Shown here: positions 34,951-56,114 of the stretch, piece after piece | Position numbering within the stretch: the first letter of the stretch is position 1 | Layout: each line of letters opens with the position of its first letter | Notes under the pieces: generated by a model | What the model was told of the DNA's origin: nothing | Seen by the model: the letters and a program-made list of their open reading frames with translations, nothing else | The model's database searches: none | DNA from: Nitrospirota bacterium | GTDB lineage: Bacteria > Nitrospirota > Nitrospiria > 2-01-FULL-66-17 | Assembly (NCBI GenBank): GCA_049325335.1 | Contig: JBMOMC010000037.1 | Span: 13,487-77,486 of the forward strand | Direction: 5' to 3' | Length of the DNA stretch: 64,000 nucleotides | Program-made: the position numbers and the translations under genes

Positions 34951-35493
34951 CTACAGCCACCCCAACGCTTCCAGCTTCTTGATCACCTTCAGCGCGCACT
35001 GCTCTACACTCTCTTGGCTCGTGCGCAGCGTGACTTCGGGGTTGAGCGGCGCTTCGTAGGGATCGTCGATGCCCGTGAACTGTTTGAGCTCACCGGCCCG
35101 CGCCTTGCGGTACAGCCCCTTCACGTCGCGCGACTCGCACACATCGAGCGGGCACTCGGCGTAGACCTCCACGAACCGCCCCACCATCTTGCGCACCTCG
35201 TCGCGCACCCCGCGGTACGGCGAGATCGCGGCCGCGATGTTGGGCACCCCATGTTTGGTCAACACGTGGCAGACCCAGCCGATGCGACGGATATTGGTGT
35301 CGCGATCCTCGCGGCTGAACCCAAGGCCCTTGCTCAGGTGCGTGCGCACCACGTCGCCGTCCAGAATTTCCACCTCTCGCCCCATCCGCTGCCGTAACAA
35401 TTCCGCCAGACGATGCGCCACCGTGGTCTTGCCCGCGCCGGACAGGCCGGTGAACCAAATGGTAAAGCCCTTCTCCCCCACTCTGGTGGACAC
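34951..35493 (-). CDS. cysC: Adenylyl-sulfate (APS) kinase
   Basis: [49 protein letters not shown] start after AAAGGAG. Confidence 0.95.
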
Positions 35494-35516
35494 CGTTATT
35501 TGCTCCTTTCGTGTGA

Positions 35517-36491
35517 TCAGAATGAGTCGCTGACGTCTCGAACTCGCGCCGATTGGCGCGGCCTCATCACAGCCGGATGGATGTGTCCCCACGGGCTCAT
35601 TGGCCGGACGTGCCACCACAACGCACGGAAGAGAGACCCGATGACGTCCATGTCCGCTCGGATCATGCCGCGACACAACCTGGCCAATACAACGATCGTA
35701 AACACCGGCACGAACGCAACCCAGTGGTACGCCGAAGCGTGCTTACGCATAAAGTAGATCCAGTTTCGCGTTCGGTAGTACGCCGTGATGGGATTGAGCC
35801 CCTTCCCTGAGCTGGCCTCACCCTTGTGGTACACGATTGCGGAGGGCGCGCACACGACCCGATAGCCGACACGCCTGCCCCGAAAACACCAATCCACCTC
35901 GTCGTAGTACGCAAAAAACACCTCATCCAATAAGCCGACCTTCTCGATAAACTCACGCGACACCAGTAACGAGCACCCGACCACGTAATCCACGTCGCGC
36001 GGCTTCATGTCAGTCTCACGGTCCGGCTGTCCGGTTGCGATGCGCCGCCGATTAAACCACAAACTCTGCGACTCGCCGCACGAGTACACGAGGTGACGGT
36101 CAGGTTCACACAGCACCTTCGGCCCCACGACCCCGATGGTTCGATCCCCACCCGCAACGCGGGTGAGTTCGGTGAGCACATCGGGATCAACAATCGTATC
36201 GTTGTTGAGGATCAAGACGTAGTCGGCGCCCCGGCGCAAGGCCCAGTGAATGCCCGCGTTGTTCCCACCCGCGTAGCCGAGATTGCTCCCCGTTTCGATC
36301 ACATCCAGTCCGGGAAAGCGCCCCGCGAGCACCTCCGGCGAGCCGTCGGTGGAGCCGTTGTCGACGACGACCGCCGTGAACCGGGGGTAGCGAAGACGCT
36401 GGACCGACTCCACGCACCGAATCGTGTCGTCGCAACGATTCCAATTCAAAACAATGACGATGACAAGCGGCACGTGCTCCTCGGCCCTCAC
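35517..36491 (-). CDS. Glycosyltransferase family 2
   Basis: [38 protein letters not shown] start overlaps the upstream stop. Confidence 0.9.
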
Positions 36492-37546
36492 GACGCGGAG
36501 GCTTTCGGACACGGCGGTGGCGATGCCGCCCAAAAGAGCAGCGCGCGGACGAGGTCCCTCCCCGCCCCTTTCATGCCTGAAGAATACCGGTGATAGCGCA
36601 GCGTCAGCAGCTCCCGAACCACCATGGGGAAACGGGACAACGGTCGGCTGGACATCAGCGCCCTCGCCCGGAGGTGCCGCACCTTCGCACGAAACAGGGC
36701 CAGAACGGGATGCGTCGGCGACTCCAAGACCGCCGCCAAACGGTCGCATGCCATCTGGTATCGATCGGCGTAGGCAACGAAGTCGTGATCCCATTTTCCG
36801 ACGTACGCGCGGGGATCCGCCCAGGCATCGGAGACGGCCGCCCGCACCATCTCGAAGACACTCGTCTCGCGTTCGCGCTTCATCTTCATCGCACCGATCT
36901 GCTGCCCGCCGTGCTGCCGGTAATCAATCAGTGGATCGGGAATGATGGCCAAGTCGGCGACGGCGGAGATCAGCAAGGCCATCCACGCATCGTGCATCCA
37001 ATCCGCGGGAATGGGGAGAATCAACTTGCGGAAGTCCGAGCGAAACACCGCCGTGGCACCGGTCACCACGTTTTCCTTGAGGAGCACCTCCAAGCCGCGC
37101 CCATCCCGTACCAACCGCCGCTGAGCGGCATCAAACCCCACAGCCTCCCACAGGCGATAGCCCAGGGGGCAAAGCGAGTCATCCACCACCTCGCCATCGG
37201 TGAACACCGCCCCGACATCGGGCGACATCGAGAACGCCGCAACAATCCGCTCCAGCTTCTCAAGCCGCCACACGTCGTCCTGATCCGACAACGCGATCAG
37301 ATCGCCTTCACACCGTTGGATTGCCTGCTCGAAATTCTTGGTGGAACCGAGAGCCGTCGGATTGAGGAAGAGACGGACCGGAAACGGCGCGTGAGACGCG
37401 AAGGCCCGAACGATGGCGACCGTGTCGTCGGTCGAGCCGTCGTCGCAGACCACCAGCTCGTGGGGCGTGAGCGTTTGCGCCGCGAGGCTCTCGAGCTGCT
37501 CCGCGAGGTACCGGCGACCGTTGTACGTGGCCAACGCGACGGACAC
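36488..37546 (-). CDS. Glycosyltransferase family 2 (rhamnosyltransferase-like)
   Basis: VALATYNG, VCDDGSTD, LSDQDDVW, MHDAW, YRQH. Confidence 0.9.
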   Translation of the reverse strand: MSVALATYNGRRYLAEQLESLAAQTLTPHELVVCDDGSTDDTVAIVRAFASHAPFPVRLFLNPTALGSTKNFEQAIQRCEGDLIALSDQDDVWRLEKLERIVAAFSMSPDVGAVFTDGEVVDDSLCPLGYRLWEAVGFDAAQRRLVRDGRGLEVLLKENVVTGATAVFRSDFRKLILPIPADWMHDAWMALLISAVADLAIIPDPLIDYRQHGGQQIGAMKMKRERETSVFEMVRAAVSDAWADPRAYVGKWDHDFVAYADRYQMACDRLAAVLESPTHPVLALFRAKVRHLRARALMSSRPLSRFPMVVRELLTLRYHRYSSGMKGAGRDLVRALLFWAASPPPCPKASAS

Positions 37547-37586
37547 GCGCCCGCCCTGAGGAGCCCGCTCGGCTCCGGCCGCCCTC

Positions 37587-40394
37587 TTAGATTCTGAAGC
37601 TAAAATCCGTCTTCTCGAGCGTCAGGTTGGGACTGTAATACGGATCGCCGGCGTCGAAGACGCGCTTCCAGCGCGTCTTCATCAACGCGATCTCCCGGTC
37701 CAGCCGCGCTCGCTCCTCCGGTTTGTCGTCATGCCCCCGGCTCACGGACTCGTGGTGATAGAGCTCGGCGTACGGGGTATAGACGACCAGGTAGCCCTTG
37801 TCCCGAATCCTCAGGCAGAGATCCACGTCGTTGAACGAATGCGAGAACGCCTCGTCGAAGCCGCCCACCTCGTCGAAGACCGTCCGCCGCATCATCATGC
37901 ACGCCGCGGTGACCGCGGTCAGGTTCTGAATGATGTTGATCCGTCCCATGTACCCCCGGGCCGACCGGGGATAGTGCTTGTGCGCGTGGTCCGCAACACC
38001 CCAGTAGCCAACGATCGTCCCGGCGTGCTGAATGGTATCGTTCGGGTAGTACAGCTTAGCTCCCACGGCCCCCACGTCGTCCCGCTGCGCGAATTCCAAC
38101 ATGGCGTCGAGCCACTCGGGGTTGATCACCTCGGTGTCATTGTTCAGAAACACCAGATAGTCCGAGTCCGTGCCGCGAACCGCGAAGTTGTTGACGGCGG
38201 AAAAATTGAAGGGCTGGTCATACCGCGCCACCCGGACCTTGGCGTGATCCGTGACGCGGTCGAAATACGCCAACGTCTCCGGCTCCCGACTTCCGTTGTC
38301 GACGATCAGGATCGTGAAGACCTCATGACGCGTCTTGGCGAGCACGGACGACACGCAGCGCTCCAGCAGATGGAGCTTGTCTCTGGTGGGCACGATGATG
38401 GTGACATGCTGGCCCGGCCGCACGCGATACTTGACGCGGTAACTTCCCAGCGCGTCGCCGTCCAGGACCTCCGCGTCCAGGCCGCGGCGAGTCAGGTGCT
38501 CCGCGATGGCCCGTTTCGCGGCGGAGACGGCATACGGCTTCACCTTCACCCCGGCCGCGGTCGATGCCGTGGCCGCCCGCCAGTGATACAGCACCTTGGG
38601 AATCCGCCGGATCGCCTGCGTCTTCTCAACCGCGCGCAGCAGCAGGTCGTAGTCCTGCGCCCCGTCATATCCCTCGCGAAACCCGCCCAACTCGTCCAGG
38701 ATCCGCTTCCTCACCACCGCGAAATGACACAGGTAGTTATAGGACAGGAACGTGTCCGGCGCCCACCCTGACTTGAACTCCGGATCATATCGCCTGGTGC
38801 CCGAGGCCGGCACCTTATCTTCGTCGGAGTAGATGATGTCCGTGGGCGAGCCCTGATTGAGCAGCTTGACGACTTCGTGCAACGCAAACGGCGCGAGCAT
38901 ATCATCGTGGTCCAGAAACCCCACGTACTCTCCGGACGCTAGCCGCAACGCTTCGTTCGCGTTGCCGGCGATCCCGCGGTTCTTGTCCAGCCGCAGGAAT
39001 TTGACTCTGGGTTCCCTGCCCGTGAACGCCTCGATGATTTCCCTCACGTACGGCTGATCGGATCCCCCGTCGACGATGCACAGCTCCCAGCGGTCGTAGA
39101 GCTGATCGGCCACGGATTCGAGACAGCGGGTCAGGGCATACCGCGTGGGATTGAACACCGGCGTCACCAGGCTGACCAGCGGCCGGTACGACCAGGCCGT
39201 GGACTCCGCCCGCATCGTCGGGAATTCAGCGCGCGTCGGCTCATGCTTCGTGATCCAAAATCGATATGGCCAGTACTCCATGTACACGAAATTGACCAAC
39301 CCATGCTCGATGATTTTTCTGGCCTTCGCGTCCACCCAACTGTAAACAGCTCGTCTCCCCGAATGAAGAGGGAGCAGCGTATCCCGTACCCGGTGGTACT
39401 TCCTCACGAGAACACGGGTCAGTTTGTAATGGATCCGATTCAATTCCGAGTCTCGATTCGCCAGCGCGGACTCCAACGCGGCCACTCGCTGCGCAAGCGC
39501 CTTCTCTGACGTGAGTCGTGCGTCAATCTCGTGCCGAAAATAGGCCGAAAACTCGGTAAATGTCCGGCGAACCTGTTCGACCGGGTTCTGAAATCCTGGA
39601 TCGGAAACCCGTACGGCGTTTCGCGCGATGTCGTCCAACATCCGGTGCAGGTGAACGACATCATCCGGCGCCTGTTCCGCCAACAGCTCCTCGCGTGGGG
39701 ACGCGTTATGCCGAAGGTCCGGCCTGAGAAACCCCTGCATGTCCTTCCGAAGTTGGGAATCGTCCTGCAGCCACAAAACGCCGAGCCCAGCCGCGCACCG
39801 CCTCAACTCAGGCTCCCAGTCGCTCATCAACCGGTCGAATGACACAAACACCGTCGGAACACCTCGAACCGCATCCAACGCGGCCAGATTCGCCGTCAAC
39901 CAAAGGCCCCACGACTTCTCGAACGGGAATCCGTCGCGCCGCTTCAACGACTTCGCGACATCAAGCGGATTGCGGACGACATAGACACAAGATAACGAGA
40001 TGCCCAACTCCGCCAACACATCCTTCCAAAGCGGAAGGATGAGCGTGGTCCGGGGATCCTTCCATGCCCATAACGGCCGTGGGCCGAACTGGGTGCGAAC
40101 CAACCTCACTAATTCATCTCGGAAGTCCTTGACCTCCGGTGATCGCTCCCATCCCGCTGGAAGCAAGCCGACCGTGTGCCATCTCCGTCCAAATCTCGCG
40201 AGAATTCTGTCGTGCAAGTCGACGACATCGCGTCGCTCAAACACCCCTTCTTGATTGTCAGGAACCGGCGGTAGAAGCTCCCTCTCTTCTCCAAGATAGG
40301 CCCCGAGAAGATTGACCGCCCGCGAGACCACCGACGTGCCGCTCCGGTGCATGCCGAGAATACACACGGCTCGCGGCGACCTCTTAGAGTCCAT
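37587..40394 (-). CDS. Multidomain sulfotransferase-coiled coil-GT2-GT2 protein
   Basis: N-terminal ILGMHRSGTS...WKDPRT...RNPLDVAKSL; heptad stretch EKALAQRVAALESALANRDSELNRI; GT2 #1 (VTPVFN, FLDHDD, GAQDYDL); GT2 #2 (IVPTRD, VDNGS, FLNNDT, NDVDLCL). Confidence 0.88.
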   Translation of the reverse strand: MDSKRSPRAVCILGMHRSGTSVVSRAVNLLGAYLGEERELLPPVPDNQEGVFERRDVVDLHDRILARFGRRWHTVGLLPAGWERSPEVKDFRDELVRLVRTQFGPRPLWAWKDPRTTLILPLWKDVLAELGISLSCVYVVRNPLDVAKSLKRRDGFPFEKSWGLWLTANLAALDAVRGVPTVFVSFDRLMSDWEPELRRCAAGLGVLWLQDDSQLRKDMQGFLRPDLRHNASPREELLAEQAPDDVVHLHRMLDDIARNAVRVSDPGFQNPVEQVRRTFTEFSAYFRHEIDARLTSEKALAQRVAALESALANRDSELNRIHYKLTRVLVRKYHRVRDTLLPLHSGRRAVYSWVDAKARKIIEHGLVNFVYMEYWPYRFWITKHEPTRAEFPTMRAESTAWSYRPLVSLVTPVFNPTRYALTRCLESVADQLYDRWELCIVDGGSDQPYVREIIEAFTGREPRVKFLRLDKNRGIAGNANEALRLASGEYVGFLDHDDMLAPFALHEVVKLLNQGSPTDIIYSDEDKVPASGTRRYDPEFKSGWAPDTFLSYNYLCHFAVVRKRILDELGGFREGYDGAQDYDLLLRAVEKTQAIRRIPKVLYHWRAATASTAAGVKVKPYAVSAAKRAIAEHLTRRGLDAEVLDGDALGSYRVKYRVRPGQHVTIIVPTRDKLHLLERCVSSVLAKTRHEVFTILIVDNGSREPETLAYFDRVTDHAKVRVARYDQPFNFSAVNNFAVRGTDSDYLVFLNNDTEVINPEWLDAMLEFAQRDDVGAVGAKLYYPNDTIQHAGTIVGYWGVADHAHKHYPRSARGYMGRINIIQNLTAVTAACMMMRRTVFDEVGGFDEAFSHSFNDVDLCLRIRDKGYLVVYTPYAELYHHESVSRGHDDKPEERARLDREIALMKTRWKRVFDAGDPYYSPNLTLEKTDFSFRI

Positions 40395-40475
40395 CAACTC
40401 CTCATGACCCCGCCCGCCGCCACTCATATCGCGATCCTCGCCATTTACGTCGGTTCCGCAACCTGCTGCCAGCGC

Positions 40476-41705
40476 TTATCCGCTACGACGACTCTTCACA
40501 TCCGAGTCTGAAAGAGCATTGACCGTCCAATGATGCGACAGCAAACACAATCCTTCCGCTTTGTATGCCGTTGATCGGACTGTGAACGAGGCGGCATCAT
40601 GTCGCACTGCGATACGACCCACTGCACTGCTCTCGAAGAACGCCACCCTGAGTCTATACGTGCCTGGGAGCACGATCGAGTCCGGATAGTGAAGCACCAA
40701 TTCATAGACTCCCGGCATGAAAGGGAGCGGCATGCCGTCTCGTTTGGTGTTGAGACCGCAAACGTTGATCCGTTCGCGGTTGAGAATCGCGACAGCTCCC
40801 ACGATGCCCGGATATTCCTTGGTAAGCCGATATGACACGCACACTGTGAACGATTCCCCGAACCCGAGTTCCGAAACAACCTCCCCTCCCTTATTTCTAA
40901 CAACGACCTGTTCAATCGAAACGACGGATTCCCCGTCATGCATAACGGTCTTGTCCTCGCGGCCCGCGGCAGCCGACTCCGCCATGACATCCGCGTAGGA
41001 GTCGGTGACGGAAACCACATCACCTTCCGCCCGGACCATCCCGTGATCGAGCCAGAGTGCCCGCGTGCAGAAATTCCGAATAACGTGAATCTGGTGGCTC
41101 ACCAATACGATAGTCCGGCCTGATCGTTGAAATGACTTGAGTCGTTCAACGCATTTCAACTGGAATGCGATGTCGCCCACCGCCAGGGCCTCGTCGATGA
41201 CGAGAATATCTGGGTCCACACTGATCGCGGTCGAGAAGGCCAACCGGACGAACATGCCGCTGGAGTAGTGCTTGACCGGTTGATCGATAAACTCCCCGAT
41301 GTCGGCGAACGCTTCAATGTCGGCAATTCGCCGGTTCATCTCGGCCCTCTTGAGCCCCATGAGCGCGCCGGTCATGTAGACGTTGTCTCGCCCGCTGAAT
41401 TCCGGATGAAAACCCGCGCCCAGTTCCAGAAGCGACGCCACCCTGCCGTTCACCTGGACGTTTCCGCTCGTTGGACGGATCACACCGCACAGAATCTTCA
41501 GCAGAGTACTTTTCCCACTGCCATTATGTCCGACAATACCAAGGGTCTCGCCTTGCTCAACCGCAACTGACACCCCGTTCAGGGCAGCAAACTCCTTCCG
41601 CGCCCCTGCGCTCTTCAGGCCCAGAAGTTGAAACAGGCGATCTTTCGGTGAGCGATACAGTCGATAGACCTTCCTGAGATCCTGAACGTCGAGCGCCGTC
41701 GGCAT
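40476..41705 (-). CDS. wzt: Polysaccharide ABC exporter ATPase with C-terminal carbohydrate-binding-like extension
   Basis: GHNGSGKST, LLELGAGFHPE, YSSGMFVRLAF, IDEALAVGD, plus about 160 aa of beta-rich C-terminal domain. Confidence 0.92.
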   Translation of the reverse strand: MPTALDVQDLRKVYRLYRSPKDRLFQLLGLKSAGARKEFAALNGVSVAVEQGETLGIVGHNGSGKSTLLKILCGVIRPTSGNVQVNGRVASLLELGAGFHPEFSGRDNVYMTGALMGLKRAEMNRRIADIEAFADIGEFIDQPVKHYSSGMFVRLAFSTAISVDPDILVIDEALAVGDIAFQLKCVERLKSFQRSGRTIVLVSHQIHVIRNFCTRALWLDHGMVRAEGDVVSVTDSYADVMAESAAAGREDKTVMHDGESVVSIEQVVVRNKGGEVVSELGFGESFTVCVSYRLTKEYPGIVGAVAILNRERINVCGLNTKRDGMPLPFMPGVYELVLHYPDSIVLPGTYRLRVAFFESSAVGRIAVRHDAASFTVRSTAYKAEGLCLLSHHWTVNALSDSDVKSRRSG

Positions 41706-41710
41706 GAGCG

Positions 41711-42523
41711 TTATAGGACGTCCGTAAACTGCGGTTTCAGCTTTCTAAATACCCCGCCCCCAAGAGCAAACACCCCCATCCCCAACGCCGCGAGATAGGC
41801 GATTCCATTGACGTCAAACGATCCGGTGCCCAACAGCGCGGCGCGGTACCCGTCCACGACGTAGATCATCGGGTTCAACGCGTACAAAGCCTTGAGCGAT
41901 TGCGGCACGAGTGTGTGGTCGTAGACGATCGGGGTGAGGAAGAACCAAATATTCACGAACACGCCGACAACCTGGCCGATGTCCCGCAGGAACACGTTCA
42001 ATGCCGACAACAGCCATGAGATGCCTAATGAAAATACCATGAGGACTGCCAAGTACGGCGCAATCAGCACAATGTGCCCCGAGACCTCGTGCCCAGAAAT
42101 CGCCAAGAGAGCCACCAGCAACATGAGCCCGATTAAATGGGTGATGACCGACGCCAAGACCCTCACAATCGAAAGCAGCTCCGACGGGAAGACCATCTTC
42201 TTGATTACGGCAGCCTGCTCGAGCACCGCATCCGACGACCGACCCAACACCTCCGCGAACATCATCCAGGGCAACAATCCTGCGATCAGCCACACCGCGT
42301 AATTCGTCCCCGCGTACTCCCCGCCCAACCGCATCTTGAGCACGACGGAAAAAACGAAATAATAGATGAGCAGTTGGATCAGAGGATGAATCACGGACCA
42401 GAACACGCCGAGAAGCGATCCGACGTACCGTTTGCGCAGATCGAGTACCACCAAACTCCGAATCATGTAACTGTTCTGCTTCAACAGCCTAAGCAAGGCT
42501 CCGATCCGTCGAAAGGGGTTCAT
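41711..42523 (-). CDS. wzm: Polysaccharide ABC exporter permease
   Basis: RYVGSLLGVFWSVIHP, GLLPW, FLRDI, TPIVY, LNPM; about six TM segments. Confidence 0.93.
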   Translation of the reverse strand: MNPFRRIGALLRLLKQNSYMIRSLVVLDLRKRYVGSLLGVFWSVIHPLIQLLIYYFVFSVVLKMRLGGEYAGTNYAVWLIAGLLPWMMFAEVLGRSSDAVLEQAAVIKKMVFPSELLSIVRVLASVITHLIGLMLLVALLAISGHEVSGHIVLIAPYLAVLMVFSLGISWLLSALNVFLRDIGQVVGVFVNIWFFLTPIVYDHTLVPQSLKALYALNPMIYVVDGYRAALLGTGSFDVNGIAYLAALGMGVFALGGGVFRKLKPQFTDVL

Positions 42524-43395: not shown

Positions 43396-44271
43396 CTAAG
43401 ATTTCTGAAAAATTATCACATCCTGGAAGAAGACTCCAGGCACTTCCTTCCAGTTCCCGGGGAAGCGTTGTACCAACCCTATCCCCGCCTCAGAAATAAG
43501 GCGGTTCAGTCCGTTCTCTGTTACACCCACAGCACTTTCCGGAACTGTCGCCCACGCGGGATGAAACCAGTCATTCGAGCCATAAGCCGGTTGATCAAAC
43601 ACCCATTTGCCTTGCGAAGTCATATGATACCGTCCCGTTGCTTTGGACCTTGCATCTAGGCCCTTCTCGTAAATCTCATCCAACAGGAAGAACGTGATTA
43701 TCGCTTTGCCTCCAGGCTTAAGCACACGACCCACTTCCTTGAAATAGAATAAAGCGTCTTCTTCATTGAGGTGCGTCCAGGTCGATAACGCCGTGACCAG
43801 ATCGAAGCTAGCAGGCTTTACTGGCCAACCTACCCTCTCGCTTTTCTGGGACGGTGTATAAGCCGGGTTACTGATGTCCAGATGTATGAACTCAAAAGCC
43901 GCAGAGGGGAAATGATTCCGGCAAAACTCAATCTCCCTTTTCACGACGTCAATTCCCACGTAGCGCCCATGAGTCCCGAGAAAAGGTTCACTCGCTATCC
44001 CCAACAATCCGGTTCCACACCCTACGTCTAGAATCGAATTATCCACTTTACGGTCCACGTGCAAATACATTAGGGTCTGGAAAATTCCGACGACGTGCGC
44101 CCATTCAGCATATGAGTACTTACCACCCCGTCTATTGTCTTCCGTTGGAATCAACCGAATATTCTTTGTCCTACGGACATGATTTCTATCTAAAGGAACA
44201 TAAAAGCGGTCAAGAAGTTTGTACAGGTCAATTCCTAACGCCTTGAGGCCACGCTCGACGACATGTCTCAA
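43396..44271 (-). CDS. Class I SAM-dependent methyltransferase
   Basis: ILDVGCGTG, YVGID, FDLV, RVLKPGG. TTG start after GAGGGG. Confidence 0.88.
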   Translation of the reverse strand: MRHVVERGLKALGIDLYKLLDRFYVPLDRNHVRRTKNIRLIPTEDNRRGGKYSYAEWAHVVGIFQTLMYLHVDRKVDNSILDVGCGTGLLGIASEPFLGTHGRYVGIDVVKREIEFCRNHFPSAAFEFIHLDISNPAYTPSQKSERVGWPVKPASFDLVTALSTWTHLNEEDALFYFKEVGRVLKPGGKAIITFFLLDEIYEKGLDARSKATGRYHMTSQGKWVFDQPAYGSNDWFHPAWATVPESAVGVTENGLNRLISEAGIGLVQRFPGNWKEVPGVFFQDVIIFQKS

Positions 44272-44286
44272 TTCATTCCCCTCGTT

Positions 44287-45048
44287 TTATTTGTCCGCTA
44301 TTGAGCGAGTTCTAACCCATTCATACAGCTCACGATCCAAGTGATTGTATTCTTCGACGACTCCTAGAGTTTCTTTTTCCAGCCACGCTCTCGGCTGTGT
44401 GGTTACGTTGAGATTCGGGATCTGGTGCCGACGCCATCCACTCCGGTTTCCGATGACTCTCACCACATCACTCATTTCTTCGACAGTCCCGATGACACCA
44501 AAGTACTTCTCAACATTCTCCTTCGCCCTCTGTATAGCCTCCCTACTATCCACGATTTCGCCCGGTCTAGTCTTGATTCCCGCAAGAATTCTCGTCATCT
44601 GATTATTGGTCATTTCCGTATAGCGTCCGGCAACGAATTGCGTCAACGATAGCCCTTCCTTCACCAAAGCGAACAATGGCGACCGTGGCGTTCGCCCAAC
44701 ATGATGGTACAAGGAGACCACTCGCTCGACCGGGTCGCGAAGAATCGTAGCGTAGATGGGTGGTGTATCCAGGGTTTGGTGAAGACCGAACGAGAAATGT
44801 CCGTAGACTATCCGGATCGCTGGTCGGTTCCGATGGAAGGCCTCTGCTAATTGCGCCCGCTGTGCGTCGACGTCGCCATCCGGGCCCGGGTACCAGAACA
44901 GACGCTGATTGTCACGATACTCGGCCTCGACGACAGATCGGAACGATGTTCCGGCGCACTTCGGAATATGGCAAAACAGCAGGGGATCGCCCTTCCACAC
45001 GCCATTTCTCCTGGCAAACCTTTTAATTTCTGACCACCAACGATTCAT
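44287..45048 (-). CDS. Sulfotransferase (Sulfotransfer_2-like)
   Basis: 5'-PSB-like FCHIPKCAGTS, 3'-PB-like LRDPVERVVSLY, NHLDRELY. Confidence 0.88.
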   Translation of the reverse strand: MNRWWSEIKRFARRNGVWKGDPLLFCHIPKCAGTSFRSVVEAEYRDNQRLFWYPGPDGDVDAQRAQLAEAFHRNRPAIRIVYGHFSFGLHQTLDTPPIYATILRDPVERVVSLYHHVGRTPRSPLFALVKEGLSLTQFVAGRYTEMTNNQMTRILAGIKTRPGEIVDSREAIQRAKENVEKYFGVIGTVEEMSDVVRVIGNRSGWRRHQIPNLNVTTQPRAWLEKETLGVVEEYNHLDRELYEWVRTRSIADK

Positions 45049-45054
45049 GTCTCT

Positions 45055-45816
45055 TTAAGACGCGGCTCCAGACTGTCCGACAGACATGTGGAGACCACTG
45101 GACTTCACCCAGTCGTACAGTCCGATGTCGAGCGCATTATGTTCGACAATCGCCTGACGCGTTTCGTGATCGATTTGAGTCGGGCTGTCCGGTTTGACGT
45201 TCAACACGGGAATCGAATGGTGACGCCACGCTAGCCGGCGAGCGAGGGCGGCCAAGACCTCGTCCATCGACTCGACGGTTCCGATGACACAGAAATATTT
45301 CCGGACGTTCTCCTTGGCCAGATCCAACCACTTTTCGTCATAGGCCACCCCTCCAGGTAGCGCCGGCACGCCGGCAAGGGTTCTCGTCATGTGGTTGCTC
45401 GCCATTCCCGCGAAGGCTTTTAACGAAAGCCCTCCCTTGATTCGGTCAAAAAACGGAGACTGAAGATCGCGCCCAAAATGATGGTACAGCGAGATCACGC
45501 GAGCCACCGGCTCACGCACGATCGTTGCGTAGACAGGAGGGATGTCCAGGAAGCGATGCATGCCGAACGCAAAGTGCCCATAGATGATTTGAATGTCCCT
45601 GCGAATCCGTTGAAACCGCTCAATGAACTCTGCGCTGGGCGTCGGGAGATTCAGTTCCTCCTGCTTGTACACAAACAGTCGCTGCTTCGGTTTGTATTCG
45701 GCCTCGATGACCGCACGGAAGGACGTGCCAGCGCATTTCGGAATATGGCAAAAAAGCAATGGGTCCACGCGCCGCAAACCGCTGAGACGAACGATTCTTC
45801 TGAGAGCGGAGGTCAA
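45055..45816 (-). CDS. Sulfotransferase (Sulfotransfer_2-like), paralog of 44287-45048
   Basis: FCHIPKCAGTS, VREPVARVISLY, NALDIGLY. Confidence 0.88.
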   Translation of the reverse strand: MTSALRRIVRLSGLRRVDPLLFCHIPKCAGTSFRAVIEAEYKPKQRLFVYKQEELNLPTPSAEFIERFQRIRRDIQIIYGHFAFGMHRFLDIPPVYATIVREPVARVISLYHHFGRDLQSPFFDRIKGGLSLKAFAGMASNHMTRTLAGVPALPGGVAYDEKWLDLAKENVRKYFCVIGTVESMDEVLAALARRLAWRHHSIPVLNVKPDSPTQIDHETRQAIVEHNALDIGLYDWVKSSGLHMSVGQSGAAS

Positions 45817-45919
45817 TGCCGCCTAGCGTTTTCGGGAAACACGGGAACTGGCGCCGACGAGACGGCAGTCAGGACGTGGACGGACGACCTCACGCGCCTG
45901 GCCGGATGCCCGACCGAAA

Positions 45920-46957
45920 TCACTGCAGGATCTTCTTGAGGCGCTTTTTCGCGCCGTTCAACATGCGCCCCAAGCGTGTCGCATAGCCCTGTTCCCAGCG
46001 TTCAGACGTCTGGGGCATGGATTCTAGATCGATCTGTAGCAGTTGGGTCGTCAAGTTGGTGGTGACATTGGGAAACAGAATCGGCAAGGTCGCTATTGTT
46101 TCGGGGCGATATTTGATCGACTTGAATCGCGAGTGGGTGACGACGAACATCAACGTGTCGATTCCCATGGATTGTGCGAGGTGCTGGGCTGCCGTGATTT
46201 CCTCGTCGCTATCGTTGAATTCGAAGAGGATATATTTCCACATGATGTTCTGTTTCTTCCCAGCCACCGTCTTGGGGATGTCCTTCATGAACCGAATCAC
46301 TTCGTCCACGTTGCCGCCAATCCGATACTGTGCATAACTCTTCTGGAACACGCCGTCGCACGACACCACGATCTCGTCGATGAACTCCCCGGCAGTGGCC
46401 TTCCCATAGTCAAAGTTCCCGTTCGTGATCACCCGCTGTCGTGTTTCGGGGTACGAATCTCTGGCCGTTCTCACGAACTCCGCAAACCGCGGGTGCATTA
46501 ACGGATCGCCCTGACCGCAGTACTCGATCTCACCGACCGTATACGAGTTCTTTCGAAGACTCTTAAGCAAACCGTCGAACGCTTCGATTTCCATCAAGAA
46601 CGGCTTAGCTCTCGTTTGTCGCTGTGTCTTATTGGAACAACACGGGCACTCAAGGTTACAGGCGAGCGACGGCTCCAGTTGTATCTTGCGGATCTTCCTC
46701 TGACTCAGGTTGTCGGAGAACGGCTCGTTCGTTCGGAGCCAGGCGCAGCTATTGCAGACCTCGCCCCACGGCACCACCCCGGCCGAAAGCGTCGCCCGCA
46801 TGTGGGTGTACTGATCGTTGGTCAGGACCTTCTGGATATCCCACGAAGGGTCAAGGTGGGCGACCGTTCCAAGGAGGACCTGCTCTCCCTTGTCGCAATC
46901 GCACGGAATGTCGCCGTTGCTCCTGACGTAGATCGTTTCGAGAATCTCACAATTCAC
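45920..46957 (-). CDS. Radical SAM protein with N-terminal SPASM/Twitch-like Cys domain
   Basis: CNLECPCC (C100/C104/C107), GQGDPLMHP, ITNG, VSCDG; extra Cys at 3, 19, 21, 68 and 71. Confidence 0.85.
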   Translation of the reverse strand: MNCEILETIYVRSNGDIPCDCDKGEQVLLGTVAHLDPSWDIQKVLTNDQYTHMRATLSAGVVPWGEVCNSCAWLRTNEPFSDNLSQRKIRKIQLEPSLACNLECPCCSNKTQRQTRAKPFLMEIEAFDGLLKSLRKNSYTVGEIEYCGQGDPLMHPRFAEFVRTARDSYPETRQRVITNGNFDYGKATAGEFIDEIVVSCDGVFQKSYAQYRIGGNVDEVIRFMKDIPKTVAGKKQNIMWKYILFEFNDSDEEITAAQHLAQSMGIDTLMFVVTHSRFKSIKYRPETIATLPILFPNVTTNLTTQLLQIDLESMPQTSERWEQGYATRLGRMLNGAKKRLKKILQ

Positions 46958-47374: not shown

Positions 47375-50300
47375 TTACGGCACATCGAACACCTCCACCA
47401 GCGCAATTCCGGTGGTGCCCCCGACGCCGCTAACCACGACCGAATACGGCCCCGGCGGTAACGTCACCAGCAACGCCGCTTCGTTACCGCAGTTCGGCGG
47501 TTGTGCCGTTTGTCCAGGGTTCGGCATACAGGGGTCCTTTCCGGTCGCTGAAATCTGCGCCGAGTTCCCACAAGAGGCGGCAGGGCTTCCGCATAGAAGA
47601 TCCGTGGTCTGCCAATTGTCGTTCTGGGCGATGGTCGTGCCTGCCGACACCAGCCGCATCGTCGGATTTACTAGTGTCCCCGGCACGTTGAAGGGCGCGC
47701 CGCTCATAGACGGCCCCCGCGCCCGGATCAACACCTGCTTGCTGCCGGTCCCCGAAGGACCGATGATGAAGCCGCCGTTTAACAACCCAGCCGGTGCCGT
47801 GACTACCGTACCGCGAGTGGAGATATTGACGAGCTTTAACTGAGATCCAGTGTCCGCCTCAAATGCCTCCACCAACGCAATCCCAGTGGTACCGCTAACA
47901 CCGCTCACCACTACTGAATACGGTCCTGGCGGCAACGTCACCAGAAGCGCAGCTTCATTCGCGCAACCTGGGGGAGGGGTAGTCTGCCCAGGGTTCGGCA
48001 CACACGGGTCCCGTCCCGTGGCAGTGATCTGTGCCGCGTTGCCGCATGTGGTCGCTGGACTCAGACACAGCGGGTCAGTAATCTGCCAATTGTCATTCTG
48101 CGCAATTGTTGTTCCCGCTGACACCAGGCGCATCGTAGGATTGGTTAACGTACCCGGCACATTAAATGGCGCACCACCCATGGAGGGTCCGCGCGCCCGG
48201 ATCAAAACCTGTTTAGTGCCGCCGTTTGCAGCGCCGATAATGAACCCTCCGTTCAGAGATCCCCCGGCCGCAGAGACCACCGCCCCCCTCGTGGAAATAT
48301 TCAGGAGCTTGGCGCCCGTGGCGGGACTAGCGGTCACGTCGATAGGCGACGTACTACATAATGTGTTGTTACCTTCCGCGTTCGCTTCAGAAATTACCCC
48401 GCCACTGTCAGCCATACCACAGACGTAGTAGGTACCGGCCGGAGTTGTATACGACACTGTGACCAGGGTCGTGGCGCTGTTGCTCGAAGCCGCGACCAAA
48501 GAGCTGATCGAGCGCAGCGGAGACAGGGCTATGTCATCGGTTCCTCCGTAAAGCGCATCCACCGACAGATGCAACGCGATCGTAAACGTCCCTGCATTCG
48601 AGCCCCCTTGATTCTGGACCGTGTTGGACACGGATAGGGGGCCGCCTTGCGGCACAGCCGTTGACAGCGGAGTGACCGCGCTCATTACTAAATCTGGTGG
48701 AGAAATCACAACAGTAACCGTGGTGGTGTGTACTTCACCAGCCGCCGTACCGCGGATCACCACCGGATAACTACCGATCGCAATGCTCGGCTGCGCGGAT
48801 ATCGTCAGCGTCGATGTCGCGGTACCGCTAGCCGGTACCGTTACCGTCGTAGGGATGAAACTGCCAGCCAGATTCGCGTCCATGGCACCGAGCGTCAACG
48901 CTACCGATCCGGAAAACGCACCTTGAGACGTTACCGTTACAGCATACGTGGTAGACCCGCCCGCGGTGACGGCCTGACTTACTGGAGCTGCCGTTACCGT
49001 GAAATTGGAAAGCAGTGCCCGCTGGACGTTCAAACGGCCGCCAGTCGTAGTTCGACCAGTTAAAGCGGGAATCGGATCGACGGTTGACAGAATAGCGTCC
49101 CTTACCTGTGTAAGCGTGTAAGACGGAAACTGCGACAGAATAAGTGCCGCCGCACCGGACACGTGGGGTGCGGCGCTCGACGTCCCGTTGACGGAGAGGT
49201 ATCGCGAGGGGTCGCAAAGTCCGCAGGATCCCGTGGGCACGGTGGAGAGGATTGCTGAGCCCGGAGCACCAAGGTCGACAGTGCTGGAACCGTAGTTGGA
49301 GAAACTCGCAAGCTGATCGTTTCGGGTCGTCGCAGACACGCAGATCACATTAGGCTGTGTGGACACGCACGGGTAGTCGGGGGTGACGTCGTTATTCGTC
49401 CCGTTGTTCCCCGCCGCCACGACAACAAGCACCCCGGCGGAATTTGCGTATGCAATCGCGTCTTCAAGGGCTTGCGAGTAACAGCCGACGCCATTACAAC
49501 CCCAACTGGCATTGATAATCCGCACACCCATATTCGCCGCATACAGAATTGCATCGACCGCATCGCTGGTCAGCCCGTTTCCGCCGGCATCCAGAAACTT
49601 AAGCGGCATGACCCTAGCCTGCCAAGCCACACCCGTGACGCCGACCCCATTGTTCCCAACCGCAGCTATGATCCCAGCGGTATGGCTCCCATGACCGCCG
49701 TCATCGGAAGGATTGCTGTCGTTATTGACGAAGTCCCAGCCACGATAGTCGTCGATATACCCGTTGCCGTCGTCGTCGATCCCGTTGCCGATAATCTCGC
49801 CCGGATTGACCCAAAGGTTGGCCGCAAGATCGGGATGCGTGAGATCCATGCCGCTGTCGATATCCGCAACCACGACACTCGGACTCCCGACCTGACTGTC
49901 CCACGCCTCGGGCGCGTCAATGTCCGCGTCGACCGTCCCGCCCGCCTGCCCAATGTTGTGCAGGCCCCACAAACTTGAGAACAGTGGGTCGTTGGGAATA
50001 ATCCGGGCTTGATAGATAATGTTGGGTTCCGCGTATTCGACATCGGGATTCTGCCGGTATCGTTGCAAGAGCGTTTCCATCGACTCTCCTCGCCGTGCTC
50101 TCACCCGATCGATTCCGATCTCATGAATCTCGGCGATCACGTCCACGTCTTCCCTAACGTGGGTCAGCCGCTTATTAGCCAGTGGTACGGGTTTCTTAAA
50201 TTTGACCAACACCTCACCCGGCATCTGAGCCGGACCGCCTATTCGTGCAACGGGACCTCGACTGGAATCGGATTCCGCATCCGCTATCGCCGATGATGCA

Positions 50301-50395
50301 GGAAGCCAGAGAAACGACAGAAGGAACGCGCTGACAAACAACGCCATTCCGGAGTGACTCCCCCCAAAGCGCCGCCAAGCGATCAATCTATCCAT
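47375..50395 (-). CDS. Secreted S8 subtilase with Ig/CARDB-like domains and two C-terminal NISTR-type domains
   Basis: Catalytic motifs VADIDSG, GHGSHTAG, NGTSSAAPHV and oxyanion AAGN; signal peptide; AGGAGG RBS before ATG 50395. Confidence 0.92.
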   Translation of the reverse strand: MDRLIAWRRFGGSHSGMALFVSAFLLSFLWLPASSAIADAESDSSRGPVARIGGPAQMPGEVLVKFKKPVPLANKRLTHVREDVDVIAEIHEIGIDRVRARRGESMETLLQRYRQNPDVEYAEPNIIYQARIIPNDPLFSSLWGLHNIGQAGGTVDADIDAPEAWDSQVGSPSVVVADIDSGMDLTHPDLAANLWVNPGEIIGNGIDDDGNGYIDDYRGWDFVNNDSNPSDDGGHGSHTAGIIAAVGNNGVGVTGVAWQARVMPLKFLDAGGNGLTSDAVDAILYAANMGVRIINASWGCNGVGCYSQALEDAIAYANSAGVLVVVAAGNNGTNNDVTPDYPCVSTQPNVICVSATTRNDQLASFSNYGSSTVDLGAPGSAILSTVPTGSCGLCDPSRYLSVNGTSSAAPHVSGAAALILSQFPSYTLTQVRDAILSTVDPIPALTGRTTTGGRLNVQRALLSNFTVTAAPVSQAVTAGGSTTYAVTVTSQGAFSGSVALTLGAMDANLAGSFIPTTVTVPASGTATSTLTISAQPSIAIGSYPVVIRGTAAGEVHTTTVTVVISPPDLVMSAVTPLSTAVPQGGPLSVSNTVQNQGGSNAGTFTIALHLSVDALYGGTDDIALSPLRSISSLVAASSNSATTLVTVSYTTPAGTYYVCGMADSGGVISEANAEGNNTLCSTSPIDVTASPATGAKLLNISTRGAVVSAAGGSLNGGFIIGAANGGTKQVLIRARGPSMGGAPFNVPGTLTNPTMRLVSAGTTIAQNDNWQITDPLCLSPATTCGNAAQITATGRDPCVPNPGQTTPPPGCANEAALLVTLPPGPYSVVVSGVSGTTGIALVEAFEADTGSQLKLVNISTRGTVVTAPAGLLNGGFIIGPSGTGSKQVLIRARGPSMSGAPFNVPGTLVNPTMRLVSAGTTIAQNDNWQTTDLLCGSPAASCGNSAQISATGKDPCMPNPGQTAQPPNCGNEAALLVTLPPGPYSVVVSGVGGTTGIALVEVFDVP

Positions 50396-50445
50396 ATCCC
50401 TCCTGAGCCATATAGGCCTCACCACGGTGTAGGAGACCTAGAATA

Positions 50446-50489
50446 GAATCGGGGTCAGTGGCGATCCCAATTGCCACTGACCCCGATTC
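50446..50489. terminator. Strong intergenic hairpin between the DUF11 and S8 genes
   Basis: GAATCGGGGTCAGTGGC...GCCACTGACCCCGATTC, a 17-bp perfect stem with only a weak U-tail (TATTCT) on the minus strand. Confidence 0.6.
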
Positions 50490-50526
50490 CATGTGGTCAG
50501 AATGCAATACCCCCAAACACTCTCTA

Positions 50527-55593: not shown

Positions 55594-56114
55594 ACGACCT
55601 CTCCCTGGTTTGTTACCGCGTGATTCGGGGTGAACGGGTTGGTCTAAAAAACACGACGACCGACGAAACACGGACCTTCGTCGGTCGTTCAAGGAACGGA
55701 ATAGGGATAGACGGGTGGCGCGGGGTGCGACGCGCATCATCAACTTCCTTCGTCTTTTTCGCCCCCCACCAACCTCCGTGGTTTGGGCGATCCTTGATGG
55801 GCGCCGAATACAACACGGCGCAGATAACTTGTGAACGGGCGTATTAGAGAGCAATTTTCGTTCCCGGGAATAATCAGGCGTCAACCATAGAAAAATAGTT
55901 TTATATTTCAATAAAGTCTGAAACCAGCACGATCAAACACGGATCAGGCCGTTGGCAGACCTGGTGCTACAAAGGGAAATTATTTGCCACAGAAAGACAC
56001 TGGGATGGAGTGTGGAACGGACATTTGTTTGTTTGTCGCGGACCGTGCGTCCCAGTCAGATGGTAACACCAACCCATGCTCCGGTTTCCCACACGGATTC
56101 TGTATAGTGGCGCT

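What the first reader, a model, noticed from the sequence alone, without database searches (positions are those of the whole stretch)
34951..42523. Candidate sulfate-capped glycan system: sulfotransferase-coiled coil-GT2-GT2 polymerase/terminator with Wzm/Wzt and its own APS kinase
Seen: one co-oriented run of wzm, wzt with a C-terminal extra domain, a 935-aa protein with sulfotransferase-like domain, heptad segment (~39420-39530) and two GT2 domains, two more GT2 genes, and cysC. Established: in ABC-exported glycans whose Wzt carries a carbohydrate-binding module (E. coli O9a WbdD/WbdA, Raoultella WbbB, Geobacillus WsaE), a terminator domain caps the chain with methyl, phosphate or Kdo, and in WbdD and WbbB a coiled coil acts as a length ruler. 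Inference: here sulfate from PAPS (made by the co-encoded CysC) is the terminating cap and export signal. I know of no biochemically characterised example, but cannot exclude earlier bioinformatic predictions.
Basis: partly seen in the sequence, partly recalled or inferred. Interest (0 to 1): 0.78.

Follow-up and report, generated by a model that had tools for sequence, protein, structure and literature searches.

The report
Sulfate-capping glycan ruler and exporter
One protein joins a predicted sulfate-transferring domain, a predicted coiled-coil spacer and two sugar-adding domains, next to an exporter that has a sugar-binding domain; it likely builds a surface sugar chain and ends it with sulfate as the "finished, export me" mark, a cap chemistry I found no test of.

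Summary
Observation confirmed. The minus-strand run is wzm, wzt with a CBM (Wzt_C; model Z 16.2 to the Aquifex CBD), a 935-aa fusion, two GT2 genes and cysC. The fusion's N-domain folds as a PAPS sulfotransferase (top 19 structural hits; PAPS motifs almost invariant). A parallel coiled coil is predicted (dimer score 0.71 vs best control 0.17), followed by a DXDD/NXD GT2 pair, as in K. pneumoniae O7 ORF6.

For the cap model:
- Heptads follow this domain in 22/25 loci directly behind wzt-CBM, against 12/37 without wzt.
- All 27 adjacent CBMs have a basic residue in the Aquifex methyl pocket, against 22/66 others.
- A CBM-only search found 10/12 strong hits beside a sulfotransferase.
- cysC is the genome's only APS kinase, and assimilation appears to use an APS reductase.

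Against:
- This CBM lies outside the sulfotransferase-linked CBM clade.
- Most in-phylum family members (13/17) have no wzt nearby.
- No biochemistry exists.

Best reading: sulfate cap and ruler, about 0.6. The scan noted the same idea in at least 8 other genomes. The 2019 terminator census was unreadable, so prior prediction is open.

The parts
41711..42523 (-). wzm, ABC-2 permease (270 aa)
   Evidence: PF01061 E 1.4e-17
40476..41705 (-). wzt, ATPase with C-terminal carbohydrate-binding module (409 aa)
   Evidence: PF00005 + PF14524 above cut-off; aligns to Aquifex Wzt 8dku over residues 6-358, E 6.6e-68
40545..40934 (-). Wzt CBM. Arg353 (codon 40647-40649) lies at the position of Aquifex Thr346 in the methyl-cap pocket; Asn319 matches Asn313; the Trp362 lid position holds Val367
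   Evidence: Model pLDDT 89.4; top four structural hits are Wzt CBDs, Z 16.2/14.4/14.3/12.5, next 10.4; pocket mapping; pocket residues from PMC9445017
37587..40394 (-). 935-aa sulfotransferase / coiled coil / GT2 / GT2 fusion (candidate terminator-ruler-polymerase)
39630..40373 (-). PAPS-dependent sulfotransferase domain, residues about 8-255: 5'-PSB loop GMHRSGTS (R17), E53, K112 (KDP), 3'-PB R141 and S149
   Evidence: VIA ranks 1-19 all sulfotransferases, Z 15.8 to TPST1 (rmsd 4.0, 211 aligned), best kinase Z 9.3; Foldseek top 11; conservation in 117-119 of 119 homologues
39375..39599 (-). Continuous helix, residues 266-340. Predicted parallel coiled-coil core 279-321 (39432-39560), followed by a basic amphipathic stretch (about 321-345)
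   Evidence: AF2 helix; heptad score 1.54 vs 99th percentile 1.18, 0/2000 shuffles; in-register dimer contacts; hydrophobic moment 0.59, net charge +5
38688..39173 (-). First GT2 module (DXDD motif at D495)
   Evidence: PF00535; motifs
37752..38405 (-). Second GT2 module (NXD motif, N751-D753)
   Evidence: PF13641/PF00535; motifs
36488..37546 (-). GT2a (352 aa), likely adaptor glycosyltransferase (inferred)
   Evidence: PF00535 E 3.7e-24
35517..36491 (-). GT2b, rhamnosyltransferase-like, likely adaptor enzyme (inferred); GTG start overlaps the GT2a stop, alternative start at 36473
   Evidence: PF00535; best NCBIfam hit TIGR01556, below cut-off
34951..35493 (-). cysC, APS kinase; the only copy found in the genome
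   Evidence: TIGR00455 above cut-off; single match in the genome
42564..43148 (-). MarR_EPS-like regulator heading the wzm run
   Evidence: PF13412; TIGR04176 below cut-off; same position in L001, L006, L208, L209
43396..44271 (-). Class I SAM methyltransferase with no coiled coil; accessory cassette, absent from the closest relative's locus
   Evidence: PF13649; heptad score 0.75
44287..45816 (-). Two tandem PF03567 sulfotransferases (44287-45048, 45055-45816) with no coiled coil; accessory cassette, replaced by MBOAT/AlgX-like genes in the closest relative
45920..46957 (-). Radical SAM protein, conserved upstream in the closest relative; role unexplained
   Evidence: PF04055; L001 E 2e-183

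Best explanation
The fusion protein is likely a single-chain polymerase, ruler and terminator that ends a lipid-linked surface glycan with a sulfate group, which the Wzt binding module would read as the export signal. Inferred steps: GT2a and GT2b make an adaptor on a lipid carrier. The two C-terminal GT2 modules, held near the membrane by the basic amphipathic helices, elongate a chain that is probably rhamnose-rich. A parallel coiled coil of about 6 heptads (6-11 nm) holds the sulfotransferase away from them, so only chains of a minimum length, probably short, reach it. CysC makes PAPS from APS supplied by Sat, which is encoded elsewhere. Sulfation of the terminal sugar blocks further elongation, and a CBM pocket with Arg in place of the methyl-binding Thr accepts the anionic end. 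Shown by computation: domain identities, fold, heptads, gene order and co-occurrence. Not shown: activity, sugar, sulfate position, termination, export dependence, and the final acceptor (LPS or surface protein).
For: (1) Sulfotransferase fold and intact PAPS motifs. Homologues are fused to a PF01507 domain (P0062) or directly to Wzt-CBM (P0118). (2) Same layout as K. pneumoniae O7 ORF6, with terminator, coiled coil and two GT2 modules carrying DXDD and NXD (PMC11231755). (3) The coiled coil is predicted as a parallel dimer: 0.71 vs best of 3 controls 0.17, runs agree in at least 95% of contacts, pLDDT at least 85; the mark was reached by 20 of 30 solved homodimers and 1 of 23 single chains. 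It is the only heptad among the locus's soluble enzymes. (4) Heptads follow the domain in 22 of 25 loci where wzt-CBM lies within 1 kb upstream, vs 12 of 37 with no wzt. (5) 20 of 27 adjacent CBMs form one multi-phylum clade (SH-aLRT 99) with no methyltransferase-linked row. In a reverse CBM-only search of 752 genomes from two other phyla, 10 of 12 strong new hits have a sulfotransferase as first or second gene. (6) A basic residue sits in the four published methyl-pocket columns in 27 of 27 adjacent CBMs vs 22 of 66 others; the opposite face shows 0/27 vs 1/66; 23 of 5000 random column sets do as well. The E. coli O9a CBM (phosphate cap) also has Arg in the lid column. (7) Natural swap: L067 has a 55%-identical GT2-GT2 module with a methyltransferase-coiled coil and a Trp-lid CBM. 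(8) cysH scores as an APS reductase (TIGR02055 277 > 235; PAPS reductase 181 < 254) and sits with sat and sulfite reductase without cysC. In the genus, cysC is intact in the 3 genomes with a sulfotransferase and a fragment in the 1 without; in G108 the fusion is the only sulfotransferase found.
Against: This locus's CBM is outside the sulfotransferase-linked clade: it scores 0.5 bits against that clade's profile, sits on a long branch and is weakly joined (80) to methyltransferase-linked rows. It lacks that clade's lid Arg, so the Arg353 argument rests on one column, shared only with L001 and L171. The phylogenetically independent test of the pocket pattern has only 2 supported pairs and is not significant. 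The family is not dedicated to this role: 13 of 17 other in-phylum loci have no wzt within about 10 kb, several being TPR-containing fusions. None of the 4 plasmid relatives examined has a wzt-CBM nearby, and one lies in a capsule-type (CBM-less) ABC locus. cysC also stays in the same cluster in G171, whose locus has methyltransferases and no sulfotransferase detected. Two PF03567 sulfotransferases and a methyltransferase upstream are alternative PAPS users and cappers. C-terminal extensions are common among Wzt proteins of this phylum, so a CBM alone says little. Internal sulfation of ABC-exported glycans is known (Cobetia CPS, PMC11766843).
Confidence: 0.6

Rival explanations
1. The fusion sulfates the glycan internally or as a decoration. 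The helix is only a linker or dimerisation stalk, and the export signal is something else (the upstream methyltransferase, a terminal sugar, or no cap).
For: Internal Rha-2-sulfate is known in an ABC-exported capsule (PMC11766843). The family occurs without wzt and in a CBM-less ABC locus. This CBM groups weakly with methyltransferase-linked CBMs. A methyltransferase is in the cluster. 12 of 37 wzt-free loci also show heptads.
Against: The methyltransferase has no coiled coil and is absent from the closest relative, which keeps the same six genes. The CBM lacks the Trp lid and has Arg in the methyl pocket. Coiled coil and CBM track the domain across phyla.
Confidence: 0.2
2. The domain does cap and measure the chain with sulfate, but export does not depend on this CBM reading it (a diverged or relaxed CBM that recognises the backbone).
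For: The window and L001 CBMs sit on a long branch outside the sulfotransferase-linked clade and lack its signature residues.
Against: Fold and pLDDT are intact. Arg353 is kept in L001 at 55% domain identity, and this column is Arg only in sulfotransferase-adjacent rows, 3 of 113.
Confidence: 0.1
3. The cap is composite: sulfate plus methyl, or several sulfates added by the accessory PF03567 enzymes, analogous to the methyl-phosphate cap of WbdD.
For: Methyltransferase-sulfotransferase fusions occur among homologues (P0024 and others). Methyltransferases lie beside or are fused to Wzt in L002, L238 and L243. This locus has the accessory methyltransferase and sulfotransferases.
Against: The accessory cassette is swapped for acetylation-type genes in L001 while the core is unchanged, so it cannot be essential to the core mechanism there.
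Confidence: 0.07
4. The N-domain is a P-loop kinase or an inactive scaffold, not a sulfotransferase.
For: No family passes a curated cut-off on this protein, and no solved close relative exists.
Against: Nineteen sulfotransferases outrank every kinase structurally. The 3'-phosphate-binding Arg and Ser are invariant. PAPS-synthesis genes are linked and fused.
Confidence: 0.03

Closest known systems
K. pneumoniae O7 ORF6 (PMC11231755; passages read)
   Same: N-terminal modifying enzyme, coiled coil and two C-terminal GT2 modules with DXDD and NXD motifs, in an ABC-dependent capped O-polysaccharide system.
   Different: The terminator there is a methyltransferase-kinase giving methyl-phosphate; here it is a sulfotransferase fold. 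Sequence homology to ORF6 was not tested directly.
Geobacillus stearothermophilus WsaE (PMC2943079; passages read)
   Same: N-terminal capping domain plus two rhamnosyltransferase domains, directly after wzm-wzt, with separate adaptor transferases.
   Different: 2-O-methyl cap on an S-layer glycan; the passages seen do not describe a coiled coil. The acceptor here is unknown.
E. coli O9a/O8 WbdD-WbdA and K. pneumoniae O12 WbbB (as described in PMC11231755)
   Same: Catalytic head, then coiled-coil ruler, then membrane-associated amphipathic helix; Wzt with a CBM.
   Different: Caps are methyl, methyl-phosphate or Kdo. The coiled coil here looks shorter (comparison with WbdD's length is recalled), and polymerase and terminator are fused.
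Aquifex aeolicus Wzm-Wzt CBD (PMC9445017; passages read)
   Same: Same CBM fold (Z 16.2) and conserved Asn313 equivalent.
   Different: The methyl pocket Thr346 is Arg here and the Trp362 lid is Val, which fits an anionic rather than a methyl cap.
Sulfated Cobetia marina capsule cluster (PMC11766843; passages read)
   Same: ABC export, PAPS genes and sulfotransferase in one glycan cluster; sulfated rhamnose.
   Different: Kps-type exporter and sulfate in every repeat, not a cap.
HNK-1 sulfotransferase capping of matriglycan (only the title seen, in a reference list; the role in limiting elongation is recalled)
   Same: Terminal sulfation of a growing glycan as a stop signal.
   Different: Eukaryotic Golgi system with no ruler and no exporter check.

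Membership tests
Capped ABC-dependent glycan systems (WbdD/WbbB/ORF6-O7 type) | wzm-wzt with a C-terminal CBM on Wzt | tested here: met
Capped ABC-dependent glycan systems (WbdD/WbbB/ORF6-O7 type) | Coiled coil separating a distal modifying enzyme from the polymerase | tested here: met
   Prediction only:
Capped ABC-dependent glycan systems (WbdD/WbbB/ORF6-O7 type) | Membrane-associating amphipathic helix after the coiled coil | tested here: inconclusive
   Basic helix with hydrophobic moment up to 0.59 at residues 321-345; no control run
Capped ABC-dependent glycan systems (WbdD/WbbB/ORF6-O7 type) | The modification is at the non-reducing end and stops elongation | not testable with these tools
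   needs glycan structure and in vitro assay
Capped ABC-dependent glycan systems (WbdD/WbbB/ORF6-O7 type) | The CBM binds the cap and export requires it | tested here: inconclusive
   Pocket has Arg353, and 27/27 vs 22/66 basic, but too few independent pairs and this CBM is outside the linked clade
Capped ABC-dependent glycan systems (WbdD/WbbB/ORF6-O7 type) | Terminator is one of the characterised chemistries (methyl, methyl-phosphate, Kdo) | tested here: not met
   The domain folds as a sulfotransferase; hence a variant, not a plain member
PAPS-dependent sulfotransferases | 5'-PSB strand-loop-helix with catalytic Lys/Arg (RXG type) | tested here: met
   GMHRSGTS, R17 in 117 of 119 homologues; definition from PMC11625862
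PAPS-dependent sulfotransferases | 3'-PB strand-turn-helix with Arg and Ser | tested here: met
   R141 and S149 in 119 of 119; aligned to SULT7A1
PAPS-dependent sulfotransferases | Catalytic base (His or Glu) | tested here: inconclusive
   E53 is invariant in 119 of 119; its match to the TPST/CurM base is recalled, the paper was not held
PAPS-dependent sulfotransferases | Sulfuryl transfer from PAPS | not testable with these tools
   needs assay
Sulfotransferase-linked CBM clade (defined here, alignment A5) | CBM falls in the clade and has the lid Arg | tested here: not met
   0.5 bits vs 227 or more for members; tree; Val at the lid

The most novel reading that the evidence does not exclude
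Sulfate is a fourth, widespread chain-terminating cap for ABC-exported bacterial glycans, alongside methyl, methyl-phosphate and Kdo. It has a dedicated multi-phylum CBM clade, and this locus shows a separate CBM lineage that converged on sulfate reading by putting an Arg at a different position of the same pocket.
Probability: 0.4. Interest if true: 0.75.

Novelty: new variant of a known kind. Interest (0 to 1): 0.58.

Why it matters
If right, it adds a new terminator chemistry to a well-studied mechanism and links sulfur metabolism (PAPS supply) to surface-glycan length and export. It gives a predictive rule for CBM pockets (Trp lid for methyl, Arg for anionic caps). It also points to a large unannotated sulfotransferase family that falls below Pfam cut-offs. 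The six-gene core is compact enough to test in E. coli, and a cultured carrier of the linked clade exists (Cohnella luojiensis, L013). A sulfotransferase specific for the chain end could be useful in glycoengineering.

Tried and rejected
Sequence searches. phmmer of the N-domain against the PDB found nothing useful. phmmer of the CBM alone missed the solved CBDs; a profile found them. NCBIfam gave no family for the N-domain. The promoter/terminator scan was no better than shuffles, so operon limits are unproven.

Statistical tests. The independent-pairs test had too few pairs. The careful tree did not finish, so the quick tree was used and the AU test was not run. The heptad score is home-made; it flags only 7 of 27 methyltransferases that follow wzt, so it is either insensitive or many of these are not terminators. 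My first reading by eye that the Trp362 lid is an Arg in this protein was wrong: the alignment gives Val367.

Cultured relatives. Plasmid relatives in Azospirillum brasilense Sp7, Cereibacter sphaeroides, Burkholderia arboris and Ruegeria are not beside wzt-CBM, so they are not direct test beds.

Literature. Ten searches found no paper describing a sulfate terminator. PMC4483657 notes an unexplained sulfotransferase gene between wzt and wbbB in Aeromonas salmonicida, with no sulfate found in the O-antigen. Not held: Mann, Kimber and Whitfield 2019 Glycobiology, Whitfield 2020 JBC, the O9a CBM paper, the TPST2 structure paper and the HNK-1ST paper. No supplements were read.

Full report
Observation. 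The minus strand carries wzm (41711-42523), wzt (40476-41705), a 935-aa fusion (37587-40394), GT2a (36488-37546), GT2b (35517-36491) and cysC (34951-35493), with gaps under 85 bases. Pfam and NCBIfam assign ABC2_membrane, ABC_tran plus Wzt_C above cut-off, two GT2 domains in the fusion, single GT2s and apsK. Upstream on the same strand are a MarR_EPS-like gene, a methyltransferase, two PF03567 sulfotransferases and a radical SAM gene. The same six-gene run is present in L001, titled a Nitrospirota MAG and equal to G108 of the same genus. So the run is not an assembly artefact, and the organism is most likely a Nitrospirota member.

The N-domain. It passes no curated cut-off (PF13469 E 0.0022), though 35 of 61 aligned members match PF13469 at E 0.01 or better. 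The AlphaFold2 model of residues 1-405 has mean pLDDT 92.4. Against 48,161 chains the first 19 hits are sulfotransferases (TPST1 Z 15.8, rmsd 4.0, 211 aligned; olefin synthase ST 15.5) and the best kinase scores 9.3. Foldseek's 11 hits at E 0.001 or better are all sulfotransferase-family proteins. Among 119 homologues (the best 120 of 429 listed, minus the window's own), R17 is kept in 117, E53 in 119, K112 in 118, and R141 and S149 in 119. This fits the PSB Arg/Lys, PB Ser and His/Glu base described in PMC11625862 (passages); the match of E53 and K112 to TPST residues is recalled. Homologues are fused to a PF01507 domain (P0062), to methyltransferases (P0024) and to Wzt-CBM itself (P0118).

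The spacer. The model has one helix from residue 266 to 340. A home-made heptad score gives 1.54 against a 99th percentile of 1.18 from 362 globular segments, and 0 of 2000 shuffles reach it. The two-copy prediction of residues 1-345 scores 0.71 against a best control of 0.17, with run agreement of at least 95% and pLDDT of at least 85; the mark was reached by 20 of 30 solved homodimers and 1 of 23 single chains. Self-contacts at 286, 290, 293, 297, 300, 304, 307, 311 and 314 give a parallel in-register coiled coil. Coiled coils are a common solved motif, so the pass may reflect likeness, and a trimer was not tested. At 0.15 nm per residue (recalled) the spacer is 6-11 nm, which suggests short chains. 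A basic amphipathic stretch follows. No other soluble enzyme of the locus reaches the threshold.

The polymerase. The GT2 pair has DXDD then NXD motifs, the pattern reported for the two rhamnosyltransferase modules of K. pneumoniae O7 ORF6 (PMC11231755). Homologues of rmlA-D are in the genome. Rhamnose is therefore likely but not shown. The same module, 55-63% identical, occurs in methyltransferase-led loci (L047, L066, L067, L074). L067 has a methyltransferase with a heptad and a Trp-lid CBM, which looks like a natural swap of terminator and reader.

Neighbourhoods, centred on the sulfotransferase. I gathered 122 loci and scored 74, dropping those with under 3 kb upstream and no wzt, or truncated ones. 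Heptads follow the domain in 22 of 25 loci with wzt-CBM within 1 kb upstream, 4 of 5 with it further away, 5 of 7 with a wzt that my profile did not score as CBM-bearing, and 12 of 37 with no wzt (Fisher p 2e-5, overstated because kin are not independent, though only 5 pairs among the 27 adjacent loci reach 70% identity). Against dedication to this role: in the phylum the family is in 18 of 301 genomes, and only 4 of 17 other loci have wzt within about 10 kb. Several of the rest are ST-GT2-TPR proteins.

Neighbourhoods, centred on the exporter. Wzt_C is in 91 of 301 genomes, and most Wzt frames listed are long enough for a C-terminal domain, so a CBM alone is weak evidence. I fetched 80 of the 133 Wzt_C matches as controls, leaving out known sulfotransferase loci and near-duplicates. 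The next gene (77 loci had one) is a methyltransferase in 27, a sulfotransferase of another family in 5 and a kinase in 1. In a quick tree of 113 CBMs, 20 of the 27 sulfotransferase-adjacent ones form one clade (SH-aLRT 99) spanning Bacillota, Binatota, Myxococcota, Thermodesulfobacteriota and Nitrospirota, with no control row inside. As a reverse test, that clade's profile alone was searched in 752 genomes of two other phyla, giving 18 matches, 16 of them new. Of 12 with E below 1e-45, 10 have a sulfotransferase as first or second gene; of the 4 weaker ones none do, one being truncated.

This locus's CBM. Its model (pLDDT 89.4) matches the four solved Wzt CBD chains best (Z 16.2-12.5, next 10.4). 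It is not in the linked clade (0.5 bits against 227 or more for members; long branch). Taking the four methyl-pocket residues named in PMC9445017 (Leu300, Thr346, Ala348, Trp362) and mapping them through a profile, a basic residue is present in 27 of 27 adjacent CBMs against 22 of 66 methyltransferase-linked or other CBMs with aligned columns. The opposite face gives 0 of 27 and 1 of 66, and 23 of 5000 random four-column sets do as well. All 7 adjacent CBMs outside the clade comply. Here the basic residue is Arg353 at Thr346, three residues from an anchored Tyr, and that column is Arg only in this protein, L001 and L171. The O9a CBM, which reads a phosphate-containing cap, has Arg in the lid column. 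The independent-pairs test has only 2 supported pairs and is not significant.

PAPS supply. cysC is the only APS kinase in this 99%-complete genome. The assimilation genes on contig C2 are cysH, sulfite reductase and sat; cysH has the CC and CXXC motifs and passes the APS-reductase model but not the PAPS-reductase one. CysC is therefore probably there for sulfation. In loci with long flanks, cysC accompanies 8 of 15 sulfotransferase-plus-wzt-CBM loci, 5 of 26 without wzt and 4 of 80 controls, whose flanks differ. In the genus it is intact in G000, G108 and G171, which all have sulfotransferases, and a fragment in G231, where none was found; in G108 the fusion is the only one found. But G171 keeps cysC in this same cluster beside methyltransferases, so its position is partly inherited, and in G000 the two PF03567 enzymes can also use PAPS. 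Those two and the methyltransferase are replaced by MBOAT/AlgX-like genes in L001, which suggests an interchangeable decoration cassette.

Mechanism and verdict. The most likely reading is a terminator-ruler-polymerase that caps the chain with sulfate, read by an Arg-bearing CBM (0.6). Rivals are internal sulfation (0.2), a cap not read by this CBM (0.1), a composite cap (0.07) and not a sulfotransferase (0.03). It works like ORF6-O7, WsaE and WbdD but fails membership on cap chemistry, so I class it as a new variant of a known kind. Caps listed in PMC9445017 and PMC11231755 are methyl, methyl-phosphate and Kdo, and neither main text contains 'sulf'. Ten searches found no sulfate terminator in the open library. 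The 2019 bioinformatic census by Mann, Kimber and Whitfield, which I recall predicting new chemistries, could not be read, so an earlier prediction is quite possible. Earlier notes of this scan raised the same idea on at least 8 other genomes; they are leads, not evidence. No supplements were seen.

Noticed in passing
window 37587-40394 vs P0001: The public gene call for the fusion is 840 aa and starts after the PAPS-binding loop, so automatic annotation sees only a glycosyltransferase.
   Followed up: yes
window 43396-46957: A low-GC cassette (0.49-0.56 vs genome 0.634) of radical SAM, two PF03567 sulfotransferases and a methyltransferase. L001 keeps the radical SAM gene but has MBOAT/AlgX-like genes instead. 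The radical SAM role is unexplained.
   Followed up: partly
window 47375-55911; L001, L002, L208, L209 upstream regions: Large secreted repeat proteins (DUF11, subtilase-CARDB, PKD/Calx-beta, Big_9) repeatedly precede these glycan loci. They are possible glycan acceptors. The genome has two Wzy_C/ligase-type genes.
   Followed up: no
L028/G108:C33:19631-19735 and L206:4387-5235: cysC fragments: a second partial copy downstream of the intact cysC in G108, and only a fragment in G231.
   Followed up: partly
P0118; P0062, P0063, P0076, P0079; P0024: Fusions of this sulfotransferase family to Wzt-CBM, to a PF01507 domain, and to methyltransferases.
   Followed up: partly
L053:10633-12318, L056:10800-12389, L092:2618-4261: Sulfatase/phosphodiesterase-fold genes closely follow Wzt-CBM in several loci; L053 and L056 have Arg-lid CBMs. 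They may represent another anionic cap chemistry.
   Followed up: no
L070:4948-7899; L093:4280-9838; L244:2890-8574; L240:4512-6041: Other candidate terminators directly after Wzt-CBM: a carbamoyltransferase, a pyruvyl-transferase-containing fusion, and unannotated N-terminal regions, one with a strong heptad.
   Followed up: no
L211 (Azospirillum brasilense Sp7 plasmid p5, 11929-14004), L212, L214: Cultured organisms carry this sulfotransferase family in surface-glycan loci without wzt-CBM nearby. They would be useful for a first activity assay.
   Followed up: partly
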